A DNA stretch of 64,000 bases. Origin: Cyanidioschyzon merolae (Eukaryota). Shown here in pieces: positions 3,291-9,018 of this stretch (the stretch's first letter is position 1; each line of letters starts with the position of its first letter). The position numbers were made by a program, and so were the translations under genes. The stretch is from NCBI GenBank assembly GCA_000091205.1, contig AP006485.2; one strand, given 5' to 3'. The notes beneath the pieces are model-generated. The model saw only the letters and a program-made list of their open reading frames with translations. It was not told the DNA's origin and made no database searches.

Positions 3291-4346
3291 ATGGCGTACC
3301 TCGTCTTTTTTCAAAAAGCACAGCGCGGGCTCGGTGGTAGGGTCTCGGGAGTGGCCGGCCCCAGGTGCGCAGGCGACTACCGCGGCCGTACGAGCCTGCT
3401 GGTGCCTCCGGGGATGCGGTCGCGTGCACGCCCGCATGCGCACTCGCTTCTAATGAAGGCGAGGCGTCGTAGTCTGGATGAAGTGGAAAGCACGCGAGAT
3501 AGCGTTGATGGGGCACGCGAAGAACGGTCGCACGGAGGTACTCGCGCTACGGGTGCGAACGACGGCTCCGGGCATACACGGACGGGCGAGTCGCCGTCGT
3601 TGCACGCTGCTTCGGGGCAGCCTGCCGATGGCGTGGCGTTAACGCACACCGCCAGTCAACCGGCTGCTGGCACGCACACCCAAGGGGTGACCGCAGACGT
3701 GAGCGCGCCGGAGCAACGGCAACCAGGTTTGAGTCTGTCGGAAGTGCAAGAGTTCCTGGAAGTCATGCGAGAAGTAACGCTGTATTGCAGCGATGCTCGG
3801 TTGCAGATCGGCAGCACTGTAATCGAGGTGAGCCGTCCAGATGGATTCGGATTTGATGAGCATGGCGAGTTGCGCACTGCCGAGCCACACCCGAGCACAC
3901 ACCCAGGCGACAGCAGTCCTGCGTCGGCATACAGTGCGCCCGCGATGCCCCCAGACGCTGAGTCGTCAGTACTGGGTAGCAGCGCTGCGCAGGCAACGGT
4001 CTCATCATCAACAGCATCGACGTCTGCGAGAGCTGCAATAGAGCAGCGGTCGGGGAAAACGCCCGAGCCGCGTCCTCGATATGACGATGTGTCGCAGATT
4101 CTTGACACCGACTTTAAAGTGATCAGCAATCGGGTTGGAATATTTCGAGCGGGGCCGCCCTCACGTCCGCCCTACGTCAAAGTGGGAGACCGGATCGAAG
4201 TCAAACGCCCCGTGTGCATCATTGAGCAGCTGGGGAACTACTTTGTCTACAATTCCGAGGTAAGTGGGACGGTCATCAAAGTTTGCGTCGAAGACGGGGC
4301 GCCCGTCGAATACGGCAAAGAACTTGTTATCATCCGACCGGAGTAA
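3291..4346 (+). CDS. Biotin carboxyl carrier protein (BCCP)-like protein lacking the biotinyl-lysine (BADC-like). The N-terminal start is uncertain.
   Basis: The C-terminus VISNRVGIFRAGPPSRPPYVKVGDRIEVKRPVCIIEQLGNYFVYNSEVSGTVIKVCVEDGAPVEYGKELVIIRPE aligns residue-for-residue with the E. coli BCCP biotinyl domain (...[46 protein letters not shown]). The conserved EAMKM is replaced by EQLGN. The upstream SEVQEFLEVMREVTLYCSDARLQIGSTVIEVSRP resembles the BCCP N-domain and is followed by a Pro/Ala/Ser linker. Confidence 0.55.
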   Translation: MAYLVFFQKAQRGLGGRVSGVAGPRCAGDYRGRTSLLVPPGMRSRARPHAHSLLMKARRRSLDEVESTRDSVDGAREERSHGGTRATGANDGSGHTRTGESPSLHAASGQPADGVALTHTASQPAAGTHTQGVTADVSAPEQRQPGLSLSEVQEFLEVMREVTLYCSDARLQIGSTVIEVSRPDGFGFDEHGELRTAEPHPSTHPGDSSPASAYSAPAMPPDAESSVLGSSAAQATVSSSTASTSARAAIEQRSGKTPEPRPRYDDVSQILDTDFKVISNRVGIFRAGPPSRPPYVKVGDRIEVKRPVCIIEQLGNYFVYNSEVSGTVIKVCVEDGAPVEYGKELVIIRPE

Positions 4347-5130
4347 ACTGAGAGATATCCTAGGAACCCGCGGTAGAGTCATTGTACAGTCACGAGACTG
4401 GGCGATCTTCACGGCACCAGGTATACGGGCACCGGCCATGCCCTGGGTGCGCTGCAGTGGCTCGCAAAGTGTGCCTTGCCTGCAGGGCGCCTGCGTTCCC
4501 CGCAGTCTTGCGGAAATCATCGGGCACGACGTACCGCAATGAACAATACGGAGGACTGCCCGTCGCCATTTTTTGATCGGCTCTGTGAGCGTTGATCTCG
4601 TCCCGTCGTGTTGCCGCGGAAACTCAACGACACCCAAGCGCACTCGGGCCTCCAACGGATACGGGACGGTCTCAGCTAGCTATGCATTTCGCGATAGACT
4701 CGTACGTTCAGCGGCACAACGGGGCGCTTGGAGCAGGCACTCGCACCAGCTGCACGTCCATGAACATCGCGCGACCGAATGTCGACTTGTACTGCCGACT
4801 CGACAACATCCACGGCATTGCACCCCATGATTCTAAATGAATCACCATAGACGTGCTCGGTGCAGATGCTGCATACCATCCCGCACGGGTTGCTCGCAAA
4901 GCGGGCCCTCTGGTTCACGTTGTCTCTGGCGATGCGGCTATCGACCGGGTGGCGGTGGCGAATAGCGCACGACCCTCGACGCCAACGCACGCCCGGGTTC
5001 GTTCGTTCGCAATGTGAACATTGCGTCGATGCATATGCGGATGCATATGTGTGTAAAGGTGTCGATGCTCGACGGGATCAAGCTATCCGCGACTGTTCAA
5101 TCCGGATCCTCTGCCGTCCGGGAGGGTCCT

Positions 5131-6486
5131 CTACGCTTCCCCAATCGCTGGCTGCACGTAGACAAACTCCTCGACATAAGGATGCGGCAAACTTTTGTCT
5201 TGCACATCGGGACAAATTTCCGAGCTCGACGGTACACAGTCTCGCGGGCAGGTCCAGATCGCAATCGTTCCGAAATCCAAAACAGCACGCGGGTCTTCGG
5301 AACGCACTCCACGTGTCGCCGGCGTCTGAGTAGGGCACTGTTCCGCAGGTTCCAGTTCGTTTTCCGACTCCCGGCAGAGATAATAAATTAACTGCGACAT
5401 GACCTGCACTTCGAAAACTCGTGGCATGCCGCAGAGGCCACAAGGAGGCACCTGTGCGGCTTCAAGCCTCGACTTGGATCCGAACCACAGGATCTGCTGA
5501 TTCGAAATCGTAGCTAGCTTTTGCGGGTTGTTCACAGCGATCATCGCAAGACGATCATGCAAGGGCAGGTATCGAATGACTTGGTTTCGATGGCTCCCAA
5601 GCGCCTGCTCGAATGCAAGTGCATCCGACAAATCAGAACAGCGTAAGTTTTGCTCTGTCTCGATTGTTTCTATGAATGATATCCATTCTGCTGCCGAGCA
5701 TGCATGCTCTTTTGTAGGTGCAGCATCCTCTGCGTCTACGTTCACCACACGGAGTTCCGATTCTTCAACTTGGTCGTCGATGACGCCGCTGTCGTGCTCG
5801 GAGTCGCTGTCCCAGTCGACGAGAATTTCGACCGCCGGGAAGCCGAGAGAGGGCTCCTCAGAGATGGTTGCGTCCGCCCCAGATTTGTCGTATGCTGCGT
5901 GTGCTCGCCGCGAACTTGTTCCGCCTACACGCGTCTGCTCTGCTGTTTGCTGCGGAGCCACTGCAGCGGCCGCTTGAAGCGCATCAAAACTGGCGGTGTC
6001 AGCGGCAGCACCCCGGTGTGGCGACGGAGGCGGATCAAGCCCCGACAACCCCGCCGACAAGTTCGCAGGGTACCGACGCAACGCTTCCAGGTCTTCGACT
6101 TGATCTGGGTACCAGCTATTGTGCTGTGGCAGCTGCACCCTGTATACTCGAGCAGCGCCTGAATTGTCGGCGGATCGACTAGCGCACCACGCACAGATGA
6201 ACAAGTACAACACGCGATGAAACGCCGCCGCATTGTGCCCCCGGGGCGCGTACACTTGCAAAAGGAAACGAAGTTGTCGTTTGCACGAGCCGCATCGTAA
6301 TCTTTTCGTGGCTAGGCCAGCGGGGAGCGGCACCAACCAGGCCGGTGTGCCGCCCGCTCGCGACTCGAACGGTGTCCACTGTTTCGACCTGAACAGCTCC
6401 CGTTCATACACACCGTCCTCGACGCAACCCAATATAATAGAAGATTTTGAGACTTCAACGTCCATGAAGGGTTCCAAGCAGTGCAT
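5131..6486 (-). CDS. PDCD2: PDCD2/Tsr4-like protein (PDCD2 N-domain, MYND-like zinc finger, PDCD2_C). The start is placed at an internal ATG; ATGs at 6465 or 6621 are alternatives.
   Basis: Motifs FESRAGGTPAWL...CGSCKRQLRFLLQVYAP (PDCD2 N-terminal signature) and PPCGLCGMPRVFEVQVMSQLIYYL (PDCD2_C). The ORF-track start at 6660 is GTG. Confidence 0.7.
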   Translation of the reverse strand: MHCLEPFMDVEVSKSSIILGCVEDGVYERELFRSKQWTPFESRAGGTPAWLVPLPAGLATKRLRCGSCKRQLRFLLQVYAPRGHNAAAFHRVLYLFICAWCASRSADNSGAARVYRVQLPQHNSWYPDQVEDLEALRRYPANLSAGLSGLDPPPSPHRGAAADTASFDALQAAAAVAPQQTAEQTRVGGTSSRRAHAAYDKSGADATISEEPSLGFPAVEILVDWDSDSEHDSGVIDDQVEESELRVVNVDAEDAAPTKEHACSAAEWISFIETIETEQNLRCSDLSDALAFEQALGSHRNQVIRYLPLHDRLAMIAVNNPQKLATISNQQILWFGSKSRLEAAQVPPCGLCGMPRVFEVQVMSQLIYYLCRESENELEPAEQCPTQTPATRGVRSEDPRAVLDFGTIAIWTCPRDCVPSSSEICPDVQDKSLPHPYVEEFVYVQPAIGEA

Positions 6487-6669
6487 AAAGATCTCAACGC
6501 TCACGTCTAGCGCTTCTGGTGTTTTGCATTCCCCAGAGGCTTTCGCATCGGGAGTGCCAAGTGCACCCGCCAGCACGTGTTGTGCCAGCACCGGGTCGCA
6601 CCGACAGGTCCGCAGGTACATGACGATTCTCGTGCGCAACCTCTGGTGCACGACCTGCACGCTTCAGGG

Positions 6670-9018
6670 ATGACTGCCTCTGAAGACGAACGAGCTCCGC
6701 TTGATTGGAGTCTGGACTATGTAAGGTACTTAGAAGCGAAGGAACGGATCGATGATCGAGCCATTCACTGCGAGCTCTGGGAGCGGTTTACGGGGTTCCT
6801 GCACAGCCAGCTGAGCCAAGGCCAAGCCGCAGCGACCCGACTGGAGCCGCTGCGCATCATTGACGTGGGTGCGGGTATCGGCTCGCTACTTTTTCGCTTA
6901 CTGGCAAGTTGGGAGCACGCGGAAGCGCTTGAACAAGTACGAACGTACCGTCGAGGGGTGGAATACTGGGCAGTCGACCTCAAGTCGCAGCTCCTGCGTG
7001 CACTGCTCCAGCGTCTGCAGAGCGTCGCAGCCAGCAATGAGAATCCCTGGCAATTGGAGCGCTATCATTTAGAAACGAACGTGGTGGACCACTCAAATGA
7101 CGACGAGTTGCACCAGTGCCTATCTGGTTTTGACCTCCACCGTGCCGCTGATCGCGATCAGCGACCGGCCTGCTCGCAAGCGATCCGAGCAGCTGCCACA
7201 GGTCAGGCGACTCGCGCAGAAAGCCCAGCGCCTGTAATGGACATGAAGACGCCCCTGGAACCAGGTCCAAAAACTCAACAAACAGTTGTTGTCGTTGGTG
7301 GTGGTGGTGGTGGTGGTGCTCAGAAAGCCACAGCTACTGCGGCCTCACTGGAGCATACGCGCCAGCATCGAGCCGGTGAAACTACTGGCGACGACACTAG
7401 GCACGTCGCCGAGCCACAAATCGGCCCTGGTGCGGCTTCAGTAGAAACAAGACGTTTTGAAGATAGCGACATGCCCGCCGGAACTCCAACAACGGATCCG
7501 CAAACGCATCATGCGTCGTGCCTGGGGTCAGCGAAGCTGGTACTGAAGGCATCATCGACTGGTTTCTACCTCAACGTACACTGCTATCAAGGCGATGCAG
7601 AAACTTTCTGTACGCAGCATCCCGGCACTGCAGAGGTGCTGTGGGCGTCATCTTTTTTCGATCTGCTGCTGAACGAGGCCGCCGCTGGGAGCGCATCGAA
7701 CCTGGCGTATGCGCGTTTGCGCGCCGCAATGCCCCGATTGCTGGCGACACTCAAACCCTATGGCGTATTTTATTTCCCTTTACATTACGACGGCATGACT
7801 TACTGGCTACCTAATTTTGATCCATCAAGCGCAGCGTATGAAGCAGAGCAGCAGGTGCTGGCAGCCTTTCATCGCTCGCTGAACCCCGATTGCACCGGCT
7901 TTTGTGGCCAAGCGCTCCTGGATGTTATACAAGACGCAGCGATACCTGCGCCTGCAGCATGTGATTGTACCTTTGGATACGTCACAGCGGGAGAAGTTTC
8001 TGCAGACGAACCGGCATTATCGAGTGCTGGCGTATCTCCCCAGCGTGTGCCACGAAGCACACAGCAAACCTTGGCGTCCGACTCGCTCTGCGCAATTCGT
8101 TCGGGGGCGTACGTACAGACGGCTGCTGGACAGCGCCTGGCCGGACCGCACGCGGCGATGCGACCCATGGTTACGGGCTTGGCACCCAGCACATGGTGTG
8201 TCCAGCCGTTTGCTGGGCTCGGCGTCTATTTGCCATCCACTGATGCCTATTTTCTCGAATGTATACTTAAGCTCATCGGTGGAGCTGCCTGGTCAAGCGC
8301 TTGCACCGCGTCAGAGAGGGCACGCATTGAGCGCTGGTACCAACAGCGACGCGAGCAGTTGCAGCAACGGCTGCTGACCTATGTTGCCCACAATATCGAT
8401 CTGCTAGGAATCGTCATTCCAGCGAGAATCCAGACTCGAGCGGTTGCCCGTGGCCCGGTCTTGCACTCGCCGACGGTTTGCGATTCGAGTATGGCGCCCG
8501 TACTGATGGGGATGACCGCGCGGGCCCGAGTGCCCGCCTTTGCCAAAAGTATAGAGCCAGTTGGCGTTTTCTCGTACGGAACGCTGCAATCGCCCCGCGT
8601 ACTACAAACCATTTTGGGACGCATTCCCCGATCGGTTGCCGCTGTGCTCAACGGGTATCGCGTCCACGGGGTGCGAGATGAATCATACCCAGCAGTGGCG
8701 AAATCAGCACCGGAAAATGCGCCGCACGAGGCCGTACCTGGCGTATTGCTTCTCGAGCTTACTGCAGCCGATCACGCGCTGCTGGACGCCTACGAAGGCC
8801 CACAGTACCAAAAACTGGTGGAAGAGGTCCAGATTCTGCCCCTGGGCATGAGACTCAGAGCTTTCGTGTACGTTTGGAAATCTTCCACTGATAATCTCGT
8901 TGCCTTACCGAACCAACACTGGGATTTGGATGCCTGGACGCGAACACATGAACAGAGTTTTTGCCAGGAATGCTCAGAATGGATCCGTACATTCAAGTCG
9001 GCAAATGCGGCTGAGTGA
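6670..9018 (+). CDS. Fusion protein: class-I SAM methyltransferase-like N-terminal domain (with a low-complexity insert) plus a C-terminal gamma-glutamylcyclotransferase/AIG2-like domain.
   Basis: Motif I LRIIDVGAGIGSLLFRLLA, later VLWASSFFDLLL and LKPYGVFYF (methyltransferase motifs II/III). C-terminal VFSYGTLQSPRVLQTILGRIP...GYRVHGV...YPAV...LDAYEGPQYQKLVEEVQ...AFVYVW matches the GGCT/AIG2 YGTL fold. The first in-frame ATG is at 6670 (the track start 6577 is GTG). Confidence 0.6.
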   Translation: MTASEDERAPLDWSLDYVRYLEAKERIDDRAIHCELWERFTGFLHSQLSQGQAAATRLEPLRIIDVGAGIGSLLFRLLASWEHAEALEQVRTYRRGVEYWAVDLKSQLLRALLQRLQSVAASNENPWQLERYHLETNVVDHSNDDELHQCLSGFDLHRAADRDQRPACSQAIRAAATGQATRAESPAPVMDMKTPLEPGPKTQQTVVVVGGGGGGGAQKATATAASLEHTRQHRAGETTGDDTRHVAEPQIGPGAASVETRRFEDSDMPAGTPTTDPQTHHASCLGSAKLVLKASSTGFYLNVHCYQGDAETFCTQHPGTAEVLWASSFFDLLLNEAAAGSASNLAYARLRAAMPRLLATLKPYGVFYFPLHYDGMTYWLPNFDPSSAAYEAEQQVLAAFHRSLNPDCTGFCGQALLDVIQDAAIPAPAACDCTFGYVTAGEVSADEPALSSAGVSPQRVPRSTQQTLASDSLCAIRSGAYVQTAAGQRLAGPHAAMRPMVTGLAPSTWCVQPFAGLGVYLPSTDAYFLECILKLIGGAAWSSACTASERARIERWYQQRREQLQQRLLTYVAHNIDLLGIVIPARIQTRAVARGPVLHSPTVCDSSMAPVLMGMTARARVPAFAKSIEPVGVFSYGTLQSPRVLQTILGRIPRSVAAVLNGYRVHGVRDESYPAVAKSAPENAPHEAVPGVLLLELTAADHALLDAYEGPQYQKLVEEVQILPLGMRLRAFVYVWKSSTDNLVALPNQHWDLDAWTRTHEQSFCQECSEWIRTFKSANAAE

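What the first reader, a model, noticed from the sequence alone, without database searches (positions are those of the whole stretch)
3291..4346. BCCP homologue with the biotinylation lysine replaced (EAMKM changed to EQLGN): a BADC-like regulator?
The C-terminal 75 residues align position-for-position with the biotinyl domain of acetyl-CoA carboxylase BCCP, and a BCCP-type N-domain plus Pro/Ala linker precede it. The invariant AMKM hairpin is EQLGN, so the protein cannot be biotinylated. In land plants, biotin-attachment-domain-containing (BADC) proteins with this property act as negative regulators of heteromeric plastid ACCase. An alga-encoded homologue would bear on the origin of that regulatory system. 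It is also unusual if the organism's genuine accB is plastid-encoded.
Basis: partly seen in the sequence, partly recalled or inferred. Interest (0 to 1): 0.6.

Follow-up and report, generated by a model that had tools for sequence, protein, structure and literature searches.

The report
Red-algal BADC-type, lysine-less BCCP paralogue
This is nuclear gene CMC015C of the red alga Cyanidioschyzon merolae: a plastid-targeted copy of the biotin carrier subunit of acetyl-CoA carboxylase that has lost the biotin-accepting lysine and carries the same EQLG hairpin as plant and green-algal BADC proteins, so it is a real but largely expected member of a known family.

Summary
ORF 3291..4346 (+) encodes 351 aa with a BCCP N-domain, a disordered Pro/Ala/Ser linker and a confident biotinyl-domain fold. 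In that fold E. coli EAMKM aligns with EQLGN, putting Gly315 at the biotinyl-lysine position. The sequence is identical to C. merolae 10D XP_005535248 (CMC015C), annotated "similar to BCCP". Published work localises it to the plastid. The genuine accB is plastid-encoded there.

EQLG is the hairpin of a large lysine-less family found in green algae, land plants and many red algae (Galdieria, Hildenbrandia, Pyropia, Cyanidiococcus). The domain is 89-91% identical between cyanidiophyte genera that share only 32-39% identity elsewhere, so this is not an error or a pseudogene.

The BADC-like reading is supported at the sequence level. A regulatory or scaffold role on biotin carboxylase is inferred, not shown. 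Common descent with green BADCs rests on the motif, three further shared derived columns and a moderately supported NJ split. With the motif removed, the red proteins score higher against a bacterial BCCP profile.

The two papers on BADC evolution were not readable here, so prior description of red-algal members could not be checked. Interest is modest: a new member of a known kind.

The parts
3291..4346 (+). Complete intronless CDS of CMC015C (351 aa plus stop), a BADC-type lysine-less BCCP paralogue.
   Evidence: ORF list. The protein is an exact match to BAM78962.1/XP_005535248.1/M1VA64 of C. merolae 10D. The cloning primer atggcgtacctcgtcttttt for CMC015C in Mori et al. 2016 equals window 3291-3310. 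Orthologues of 352-353 aa are colinear and start MAFLLFLQ.
3291..3725 (+). N-terminal extension, residues 1-145: plastid transit peptide followed by a poorly conserved, disordered region. Aromatic residues lie near the N-terminus (MAYLVFFQ).
   Evidence: Residues 1-155 fused to GFP localised to the plastid (Mori et al. 2016 supplement). pLDDT is below 50 over most of residues 15-131. Identity to the other cyanidiophyte orthologues is only 32-34%. That a Phe-rich N-terminus is typical of rhodophyte transit peptides comes from my own knowledge.
3726..3836 (+). BCCP-type N-terminal domain, residues 146-182 (GLSLSEVQEFLEVMREVTLYCSDARLQIGSTVIEVSR). This is the presumed docking and oligomerisation module for biotin carboxylase.
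   Evidence: hhalign of the red-algal N-domain alignment against bacterial BCCP N-termini gives probability 96.4%, E=1.1e-9. AlphaFold2 predicts a helix at 149-162 and strands at 168-173 and 176-181. Identity to the cyanidiophyte orthologues is 62-65%. The docking role is inferred from E. coli BCCP (own knowledge).
3837..3866 (+). Red-alga-specific conserved motif PDGFGFDEHG, residues 183-192 (consensus PGGRGFDxDG). Function unknown.
   Evidence: The motif is conserved in Cyanidiococcus-type, Hildenbrandia, Pyropia and unnamed red-type sequences. It is absent from the Galdieria orthologues and from the green-algal sequences aligned.
3867..4070 (+). Flexible linker rich in Pro, Ala, Ser and Thr, residues 193-260.
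   Evidence: Composition is read from the translation. pLDDT is about 43-53. Identity to orthologues is 39% over residues 186-270.
4101..4343 (+). Biotinyl-domain fold without a biotin acceptor, residues 271-351. The thumb loop (residues 287-294) has normal BCCP length.
   Evidence: Pfam PF00364. PDB alignments to E. coli BCCP. pLDDT is about 97. Foldseek match to 1bdo at rmsd 0.7 A. Identity to orthologues is 89-91%, and there are no amino-acid variants among 13 full-length metagenome alleles.
4224..4238 (+). Hairpin tip E312-Q313-L314-G315-N316, which replaces the E-A-M-K-M of BCCP. Gly315 occupies the biotinyl-lysine position.
   Evidence: Alignment. Strands 307-313 and 316-321 flank the tip. 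EQLG is found in red, green and land-plant homologues, against EAMK in all the BCCPs examined.

Best explanation
CMC015C is a nuclear-encoded, plastid-imported, non-catalytic paralogue of the biotin carboxyl carrier protein, of the BADC type. It keeps the BCCP N-domain, the flexible linker and an intact biotinyl-domain fold. The hairpin tip reads EQLG instead of EAMK, so holocarboxylase synthetase has no lysine to biotinylate. The most likely mechanism is that it occupies BCCP-binding sites on plastid biotin carboxylase (AccC, CMS299C) and/or pairs with the plastid-encoded AccB (CMV134C). It would thereby set how much catalytically competent BC-BCCP complex forms in the heteromeric plastid acetyl-CoA carboxylase. 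The following are shown: domain architecture, absence of the lysine, purifying selection, the family-wide EQLG motif across red algae, green algae and land plants, and (from the literature) plastid localisation and plastid-encoded accB. The following are inferred: binding to BC and BCCP, lack of biotinylation in vivo, and the sign of the effect on ACCase activity.
For: Architecture and missing lysine are established. Identity and localisation: the protein is an exact match to C. merolae 10D XP_005535248. CMC015C is listed as plastid-localised by GFP fusion, accB/accA/accD are plastid-encoded, and accC is nuclear and plastid-targeted. Selection: the domain is 89-91% identical to orthologues that share 32-39% identity in the N-extension and linker, and all 7 variable positions among 13 environmental alleles lie outside the domain. 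Family: EQLG, or a one-residue variant of it, occurs in about 85 green-algal clusters. It also occurs in land-plant proteins from Salix, Populus, Sesamum, Riccia, Adiantum and Selaginella, and in red algae including Galdieria sulphuraria and G. phlegrea, Hildenbrandia, Pyropia and Cyanidiococcus. The Chlamydomonas member of the green-algal group, Cre01.g037850 (BCC2), is described as the alga's BADC-like inactive BCCP (name link). That protein itself was not retrieved here. An Auxenochlorella protein named BCC2 (P0081) carries EQLG. Shared derived states beyond the motif: R/K at residue 281 (BCCP has M/I/L), a hydrophobic residue at 284 (BCCP has T), and G at 288 (BCCP has S/A). An NJ split separates all EQLG proteins from 41 bacterial BCCPs in 269/300 bootstraps, and in 180/300 with the motif columns masked. 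The plant mechanism literature is summarised.
Against: No experiment on this protein beyond localisation was found, and no held paper mentions CMC015C in its main text. With the Q-L-G columns removed, the red proteins score higher against a bacterial BCCP HMM than against a green-plus-land BADC HMM. For the window protein the scores are 75.5 against 52.5 bits, and the mean difference over 24 red sequences is -11.2 bits. Masked pairwise identities are about equal: 0.31-0.37 to BADCs and 0.39 to BCCPs. The red proteins also lack two features seen in the aligned green-algal and land-plant sequences. One is the 6-7-residue thumb insertion (RRGRYxKGKxVGKG). The other is the C-terminal extension, PFFGGHIIGD in green algae and PSFPG... 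in land plants. The tree contained no plastid-encoded, cyanobacterial or plant nuclear BCCPs.
Confidence: 0.7

Rival explanations
1. The molecule is the same, but its role is opposite in sign. It would be an obligatory assembly or scaffold subunit that promotes formation of the BC-BCCP subcomplex, rather than a competitive inhibitor.
For: Plant work cited in reviews reports that BADCs facilitate the BC/BCCP/BADC subcomplex and that the badc2 badc3 double mutant is embryo-lethal. Very strong conservation of the domain across Rhodophyta fits a core structural role. In Chlamydomonas the BADC-like protein is stoichiometric with the CT subunits.
Against: BADCs reduce ACCase activity in vitro, and badc double mutants have more seed oil. 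Nothing here distinguishes the two roles for the red-algal protein.
Confidence: 0.3
2. Independent origin. Red algae lost the lysine in their own nuclear copy of accB and converged on EQLG, so the protein is BADC-like in function but not an orthologue of Viridiplantae BADC.
For: Outside the motif the red proteins are more BCCP-like than BADC-like by HMM score and equidistant by identity. They lack the thumb insertion and the C-terminal tail of the green type. With the motif masked, bootstrap support for a joint clade is only 180/300.
Against: Three identical replacements at consecutive positions (A to Q, M to L, K to G) need about five nucleotide changes in all. Three further shared derived columns add to this. 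The NJ best tree joins the groups with and without the motif. The BCCP-like scores can be explained by faster divergence of the green lineage.
Confidence: 0.15
3. Artefact or decaying gene: a sequencing error, a frameshift or a pseudogenised BCCP copy.
For: None beyond the loss of the catalytic lysine.
Against: The ORF is intact and colinear with orthologues. EQLG is identical in the reference genome and in the 14 other members of the 90% cluster that were listed, 13 of them full length, from independent metagenomes and assemblies. The domain is 89-91% conserved between genera and has no population variants. The motif is conserved across three major lineages.
Confidence: 0.02
4. The protein works outside ACCase, for example as a decoy or sink for PII or for holocarboxylase synthetase, or as a partner of another plastid ATP-grasp enzyme.
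For: In Arabidopsis PII binds BADCs as well as BCCPs. C. merolae holocarboxylase synthetase is dually plastid/cytosol-localised.
Against: The retained BCCP N-domain and the reported co-occurrence of the family with heteromeric ACCase point to ACCase. There is no evidence for other partners.
Confidence: 0.05

Closest known systems
Land-plant BADC proteins (Arabidopsis BADC1-3; from my own knowledge AT3G56130, AT1G52670 and AT3G15690)
   Same: BCCP-like layout of N-domain, linker and biotinyl fold. Plastid location. No biotinyl lysine. The hairpin reads EQLG (CYIEQLGG/T in the Salix, Populus, Sesamum, Riccia and Adiantum sequences). Shared R/K281, hydrophobic 284 and G288. Placed in the same Gclust homology cluster as CMC015C by Mori et al. 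2016.
   Different: The plant proteins carry a 6-7-residue insertion in the thumb loop and a C-terminal PSFPG... tail, both absent here. They coexist with nuclear BCCP1/2, whereas in C. merolae the only true BCCP is plastid-encoded. Function has been tested in plants only.
Green-algal BADC-like proteins (Chlamydomonas BCC2/Cre01.g037850 and homologues in Chlorella, Coccomyxa, Volvox and Auxenochlorella)
   Same: EQLG(T) hairpin, BCCP N-domain and Ala/Pro linker. The Chlamydomonas protein is described as the single algal BADC-like inactive BCCP.
   Different: Thumb insertion RRGRYxKGKxVGKG and the tail PFFGGHIIGDSKYA. Identity to the window protein over the domain is only about 31%.
Genuine BCCP/AccB (E. 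coli AccB, PDB 1bdo and 4hr7; C. merolae plastid CMV134C)
   Same: Same fold (rmsd 0.7 A), same N-domain, same thumb length and about 35-39% identity. With the motif removed, the window protein scores higher against a BCCP HMM than against a green BADC HMM.
   Different: EAMK with the biotinyl lysine is invariant in BCCPs (K in 100% of 41 sequences). Here the position is Gly. The TIGR00531 score is 59.7 against a cutoff of 115.2.
Red-algal orthologues (Galdieria sulphuraria XP_005708748, G. phlegrea, Hildenbrandia rubra, Pyropia vietnamensis, Cyanidiococcus yangmingshanensis F1559_002879)
   Same: Same architecture. CIIEQLG hairpin, SNRVG strand, IRPD/E C-terminus and no tail. The red clade is recovered in 270-275 of 300 bootstraps.
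   Different: The N-extension varies in length. Pyropia has EQLS and one unnamed red-type sequence (P0160) has DQLG. Galdieria lacks the PGGRGFD motif.

Membership tests
BADC (biotin attachment domain-containing, lysine-less BCCP paralogues of plastid heteromeric ACCase) | BCCP-like protein with a biotinyl/lipoyl attachment domain fold | tested here: met
   PF00364 at E=2.4e-8. pLDDT about 97. Foldseek match to 1bdo with TM-target 0.90 and rmsd 0.7 A. N-domain hhalign probability 96.4%.
BADC (biotin attachment domain-containing, lysine-less BCCP paralogues of plastid heteromeric ACCase) | The canonical biotinylation motif (E/C)AMK is absent, with no lysine at the hairpin tip | tested here: met
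   EQLGN aligns with EAMKM, with Gly315 at the lysine position. The hairpin tip is at residues 314-315 in the model.
BADC (biotin attachment domain-containing, lysine-less BCCP paralogues of plastid heteromeric ACCase) | The family-typical replacement hairpin EQLG seen in green-algal and land-plant members | tested here: met
   Q313, L314 and G315 are identical to 87-100% of green and land sequences.
BADC (biotin attachment domain-containing, lysine-less BCCP paralogues of plastid heteromeric ACCase) | Phylogenetic grouping with BADCs to the exclusion of BCCPs | tested here: inconclusive
   The NJ split is recovered in 269/300 bootstraps, and in 180/300 with the motif masked, but only against bacterial BCCPs. 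HMM scores with the motif removed favour BCCP. No plastid, cyanobacterial or plant BCCPs were available.
BADC (biotin attachment domain-containing, lysine-less BCCP paralogues of plastid heteromeric ACCase) | Thumb-loop insertion and C-terminal extension. These are features I observed in the aligned green-algal and land-plant members. They are not part of any published definition that I could read. | tested here: not met
   The thumb has normal BCCP length and the protein ends ...IIRPE.
BADC (biotin attachment domain-containing, lysine-less BCCP paralogues of plastid heteromeric ACCase) | Plastid localisation and co-occurrence with a heteromeric ACCase | not testable with these tools
   From the literature only. 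CMC015C N-terminal 155 aa fused to GFP localises to the plastid. AccA, AccB and AccD are plastid-encoded and AccC is plastid-targeted (Mori et al. 2016, PMC4928187).
BADC (biotin attachment domain-containing, lysine-less BCCP paralogues of plastid heteromeric ACCase) | Binds BC and/or BCCP, is not biotinylated in vivo, and changes ACCase activity | not testable with these tools
   Known for the Arabidopsis proteins. No data exist for the red-algal protein.
Functional BCCP (AccB, TIGR00531 equivalog) | Score above the curated equivalog cutoff | tested here: not met
   59.7 bits against a cutoff of 115.2.
Functional BCCP (AccB, TIGR00531 equivalog) | Biotinyl lysine within E-A/S/V-M-K at the hairpin tip | tested here: not met
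   Gly315 occupies that position.

The most novel reading that the evidence does not exclude
The lysine-less EQLG paralogue arose once, in the common ancestor of red algae and Viridiplantae, while the functional accB was still plastid-encoded. On this reading, the first BCCP-family gene to settle in the nucleus was the non-catalytic one, and it is an ancient core subunit of plastid ACCase rather than a plant-specific brake. Red algae would preserve the ancestral form, with a normal thumb and no C-terminal tail. C. merolae, with one plastid accB, one nuclear accC, one BADC-type gene and workable gene targeting, would be the simplest system in which to settle whether BADCs inhibit or assemble ACCase.
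Probability: 0.5. Interest if true: 0.45.

Novelty: new member of a known kind. Interest (0 to 1): 0.3.

Why it matters
BADC proteins are engineering targets for raising plant oil content, and their role as inhibitor or assembly factor is still debated. A red-algal member that keeps the ancestral BCCP shape, and that sits beside a plastid-encoded accB, suggests the family predates the red/green split. It also offers a single-copy, genetically tractable system for testing the mechanism. A practical point follows for annotation. CMC015C and its Galdieria orthologue are labelled 'BCCP' or 'acetyl-CoA carboxylase biotin carboxyl carrier protein' in databases and metabolic maps. Since they cannot carry biotin, they should not be counted as catalytic subunits.

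Tried and rejected
(1) Four papers could not be read because they are not held: Salie et al. 2016 (PMC5059801), Conrado et al. 2024 on BADC/CTI evolution (PMC11449227, doi 10.1098/rstb.2023.0353), Shivaiah et al. 2020 (PMC6997691) and Ye et al. 2020 JBC (PMC7380191). I therefore could not check whether red-algal BADCs, or CMC015C itself, are already described. My unverified recollection is that those papers trace BADCs into algae, possibly including red algae. Full-text searches for BADC together with red-algal terms found nothing relevant, and no held main text mentions CMC015C.

(2) To obtain real land-plant BADCs I queried the protein index with an Arabidopsis BADC3 C-terminus recalled from memory. 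It returned only 23 candidates, mostly fragments, but these are genuine database proteins at 66-84% identity carrying CYIEQLGG. The recalled sequence itself is not used as evidence.

(3) A sequence search of PDB for Arabidopsis BCCP1 (9a87) failed because that chain is not in the sequence copy. No plant BCCP therefore entered the tree.

(4) The first bootstrap script timed out. It was rewritten with numpy.

(5) HMM log-odds classification with the motif removed did not support BADC membership. This is reported as evidence against.

(6) Sequencing error, frameshift and pseudogene were rejected on conservation grounds.

(7) A hidden intron was rejected. The ORF is continuous and colinear with its orthologues.

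(8) Neighbouring genes are unrelated housekeeping genes (PDCD2_C, GGACT, longin-SNARE, Sec1) and the window has no tRNAs, so context adds nothing.
Full report
**What is there.** Window 3291..4346 (+) is a single uninterrupted ORF of 351 codons starting at ATG. Its product is identical, residue for residue, to Cyanidioschyzon merolae 10D BAM78962.1/XP_005535248.1 (UniProt M1VA64), annotated 'similar to biotin carboxyl carrier protein of acetyl-CoA carboxylase', on a 481,791-bp contig. The cloning primer published for locus CMC015C (atggcgtacctcgtcttttt) equals window 3291-3310. The window is about 56% G+C. Its neighbours are ordinary eukaryotic genes: PDCD2_C, GGACT, a longin-SNARE and Sec1. 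There are no tRNAs. This is a nuclear gene of a red alga.

**Checking the observation.** Pfam Biotin_lipoyl matches residues 293-348 (E=2.4e-8, above the gathering score). The BCCP equivalog model TIGR00531 matches residues 232-349, but at 59.7 bits against a cutoff of 115.2. phmmer against PDB aligns residues 279-348 with the E. coli BCCP biotinyl domain. The hairpin region aligns without gaps and puts E312-Q313-L314-G315-N316 opposite E-A-M-K-M, so a glycine sits where the biotinyl lysine should be.

An AlphaFold2 model built on a 40-sequence alignment gives residues 272-351 a pLDDT of about 97. Strands 307-313 and 316-321 place L314-G315 at the hairpin tip. Foldseek's best PDB matches are 1bdo (rmsd 0.7 A, TM-target 0.90) and Arabidopsis BCCP1 9a87.

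The upstream 'BCCP-type N-domain' is also real. The red-algal alignment of residues 148-185 matches bacterial BCCP N-termini at hhalign probability 96.4%, E=1.1e-9. The model shows a helix followed by a beta-hairpin there. The segment between the domains is rich in Pro, Ala, Ser and Thr and is disordered.

**Not an error or a pseudogene.** The same EQLG hairpin is present in the 14 other listed members of the 90%-identity cluster, from independent hot-spring metagenomes and assemblies. Among the 13 full-length variant alleles there are 7 variable positions, and none falls in residues 271-351. Cyanidiococcus yangmingshanensis and a third cyanidiophyte have colinear orthologues of 352-353 aa. 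These are 89-91% identical in the biotinyl-like domain and 62-65% in the N-domain, but only 32-39% in the N-extension and linker. The lysine-less domain is therefore under strong purifying selection.

**What family it belongs to.** A profile search of the 5.8-billion-protein index, followed by an exhaustive HMMER search of 1.84 billion representatives, shows that EQLG is not a private oddity. It is the hallmark of a large family.

- About 85 of the 120 best hits in the first search are green-algal proteins of 170-300 aa with ...Y/F-I/V-EQLGT... They are named in Micractinium, Chlorella, Coccomyxa, Dunaliella, Volvox, Trebouxia and Polytomella, and include an Auxenochlorella protein named 'BCC2'.
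- Land-plant members carry CY(I/L)EQLG(G/T). They come from Salix, Populus, Kingdonia, Hibiscus, Colocasia, Sesamum, Riccia and Adiantum. Selaginella has EQFG.
- A distinct, tighter group with QPVCIIEQLGQQYVY is red-algal. Named members are Galdieria sulphuraria (XP_005708748, annotated as BCCP), G. phlegrea, Hildenbrandia rubra and Pyropia vietnamensis (EQLS). About twenty more clusters are unnamed.
- All the proteins examined that retain a lysine read E(A/S/V)MK.

The literature links the green group to BADC. [quoted passage not shown] That Chlamydomonas protein was not itself retrieved here. Mori et al.'s Gclust cluster for accB already groups CMC015C with AT1G52670, AT3G15690 and AT3G56130, which from my own knowledge are the three Arabidopsis BADC genes.

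**How strong is common descent with BADC?** I aligned 24 red, 30 green and 15 land-plant EQLG proteins with 41 bacterial BCCPs over 83 domain columns.

- NJ recovers the split 'all EQLG versus BCCP' in the best tree, in 269/300 bootstraps.
- With the five motif columns masked, the split is still in the best tree, but at 180/300.
- The red clade is recovered in 270-275 of 300.
- Besides Q-L-G, three columns carry states shared by all three EQLG groups and different in BCCPs. These are R/K at residue 281 (BCCP has M/I/L), a hydrophobic residue at 284 (Thr in 98% of BCCPs), and Gly at 288 (BCCP has S/A).

Against this, once Q-L-G is removed, all 24 red proteins score higher against a bacterial BCCP HMM than against a green-plus-land BADC HMM. 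The window protein scores 75.5 against 52.5 bits. Masked identities are about equal. The red proteins also lack the thumb-loop insertion and the C-terminal tail seen in the aligned green-algal and land-plant members.

I read this as follows. The red form is a slowly evolving, ancestral-looking BADC, and the green form is more derived. Three identical consecutive replacements plus three further shared states are hard to obtain twice. The tree lacked plastid-encoded, cyanobacterial and plant nuclear BCCPs, however, so independent origin is not excluded. I give it about 0.15.

**Biological context from the literature.** In C. merolae the heteromeric ACCase is a plastid enzyme. AccA (CMV056C), AccB (CMV134C) and AccD (CMV207C) are plastid-encoded. 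AccC (CMS299C) is nuclear and plastid-targeted. CMC015C is listed separately as 'BCCP'. Its first 155 residues fused to GFP go to the plastid, and the authors make no comment on the missing lysine. Holocarboxylase synthetase is dually plastid/cytosolic. According to the Gclust cluster in Mori et al.'s table, the only BCCP-family gene listed for the C. merolae nucleus is the non-biotinylatable one.

**Mechanism.** The following steps are shown:

- a BCCP N-domain, a linker and a biotinyl fold;
- no acceptor lysine;
- import into the plastid;
- strong constraint on the domain.

The rest is inferred by analogy with Arabidopsis BADCs, which bind BC and BCCP, are not biotinylated and lower ACCase activity in vitro, but are also reported to promote BC/BCCP subcomplex assembly and to be pH- and PII-responsive. 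By that analogy, the protein docks on biotin carboxylase and/or pairs with AccB. It cannot shuttle carboxybiotin, so it tunes or organises the active complex. I put 0.7 on 'non-catalytic BC/BCCP-binding subunit of plastid ACCase'. Within that, the choice between inhibitor and scaffold is open.

**Novelty and interest.** The gene is annotated and localised, the BADC family is well known, and green-algal members are recognised. What I could not find in any readable paper is an explicit statement that CMC015C, or red algae generally, carry a BADC-type protein. The two papers most likely to say so (Salie et al. 2016; Conrado et al. 2024) are not held, and my recollection is that they do trace BADCs into algae. 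I therefore class this as a new member of a known kind, of modest interest (0.3). The most interesting residue is evolutionary: the family probably predates the red/green split and predates the transfer of accB to the nucleus. C. merolae would also be a minimal system for resolving what BADCs actually do.

Noticed in passing
window 3837-3866 (residues 183-192, PDGFGFDEHG): A short motif directly after the N-domain, consensus PGGRGFDxDG. It is conserved from Cyanidioschyzon to Hildenbrandia, Pyropia and unnamed red-type sequences. It is absent from the Galdieria orthologues and from the green-algal sequences aligned. Function unknown.
   Followed up: no
window 4071-4115 (residues 261-275, RPRYDDVSQILDTDF): The segment just upstream of the biotinyl-like fold is conserved within red algae (D274 in 96% and F275 in 92% of 24 sequences). 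It has no counterpart in green BADCs. It may extend the domain or form a red-specific interface.
   Followed up: no
window 4161-4655, minus strand: A 164-aa antisense ORF overlaps the 3' end of the gene. Prokaryotic gene callers annotated it as a 160-aa gene on the JGI metagenome contigs. It has no Pfam match, so it is most likely spurious.
   Followed up: partly
P0073 (database protein, 172 aa), named 'MAG: biotin/lipoyl-containing protein [bacterium]': This protein carries the green-algal BADC hallmarks, YIEQLGTFWPVESP and the tail PFFGGHIIGDSKHM. It is probably a picoeukaryote contig mis-binned into a bacterial MAG, not a bacterial BADC.
   Followed up: no
homologues P0167 (Pyropia), P0160, P0228 (Selaginella), P0212 (Botryococcus), P0032/P0034/P0048: The EQLG hairpin tolerates single changes: EQLS, DQLG, EQFG, EQVG and EQMG. 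None of the variants restores a lysine.
   Followed up: partly
loci L001-L004 (JGI hot-spring metagenomes 3300050360, 3300050370, 3300050387, 3300053663): Environmental Cyanidioschyzon contigs carry this gene with the same neighbour (PDCD2_C) and at least 13 protein alleles. The variable positions are 68, 95, 123, 134, 141, 173 and 227. This is a ready-made population sample for this chromosome region.
   Followed up: partly
window 5131-6660 (-) and 6577-9018 (+): The mechanical ORFs for the PDCD2_C protein and the GGACT-domain protein overlap head-to-head by 84 bp. This is probably because both listed ORFs begin at upstream GTG codons rather than at the true ATG starts. On the metagenome contig the two called genes are shorter and do not overlap.
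   Followed up: no
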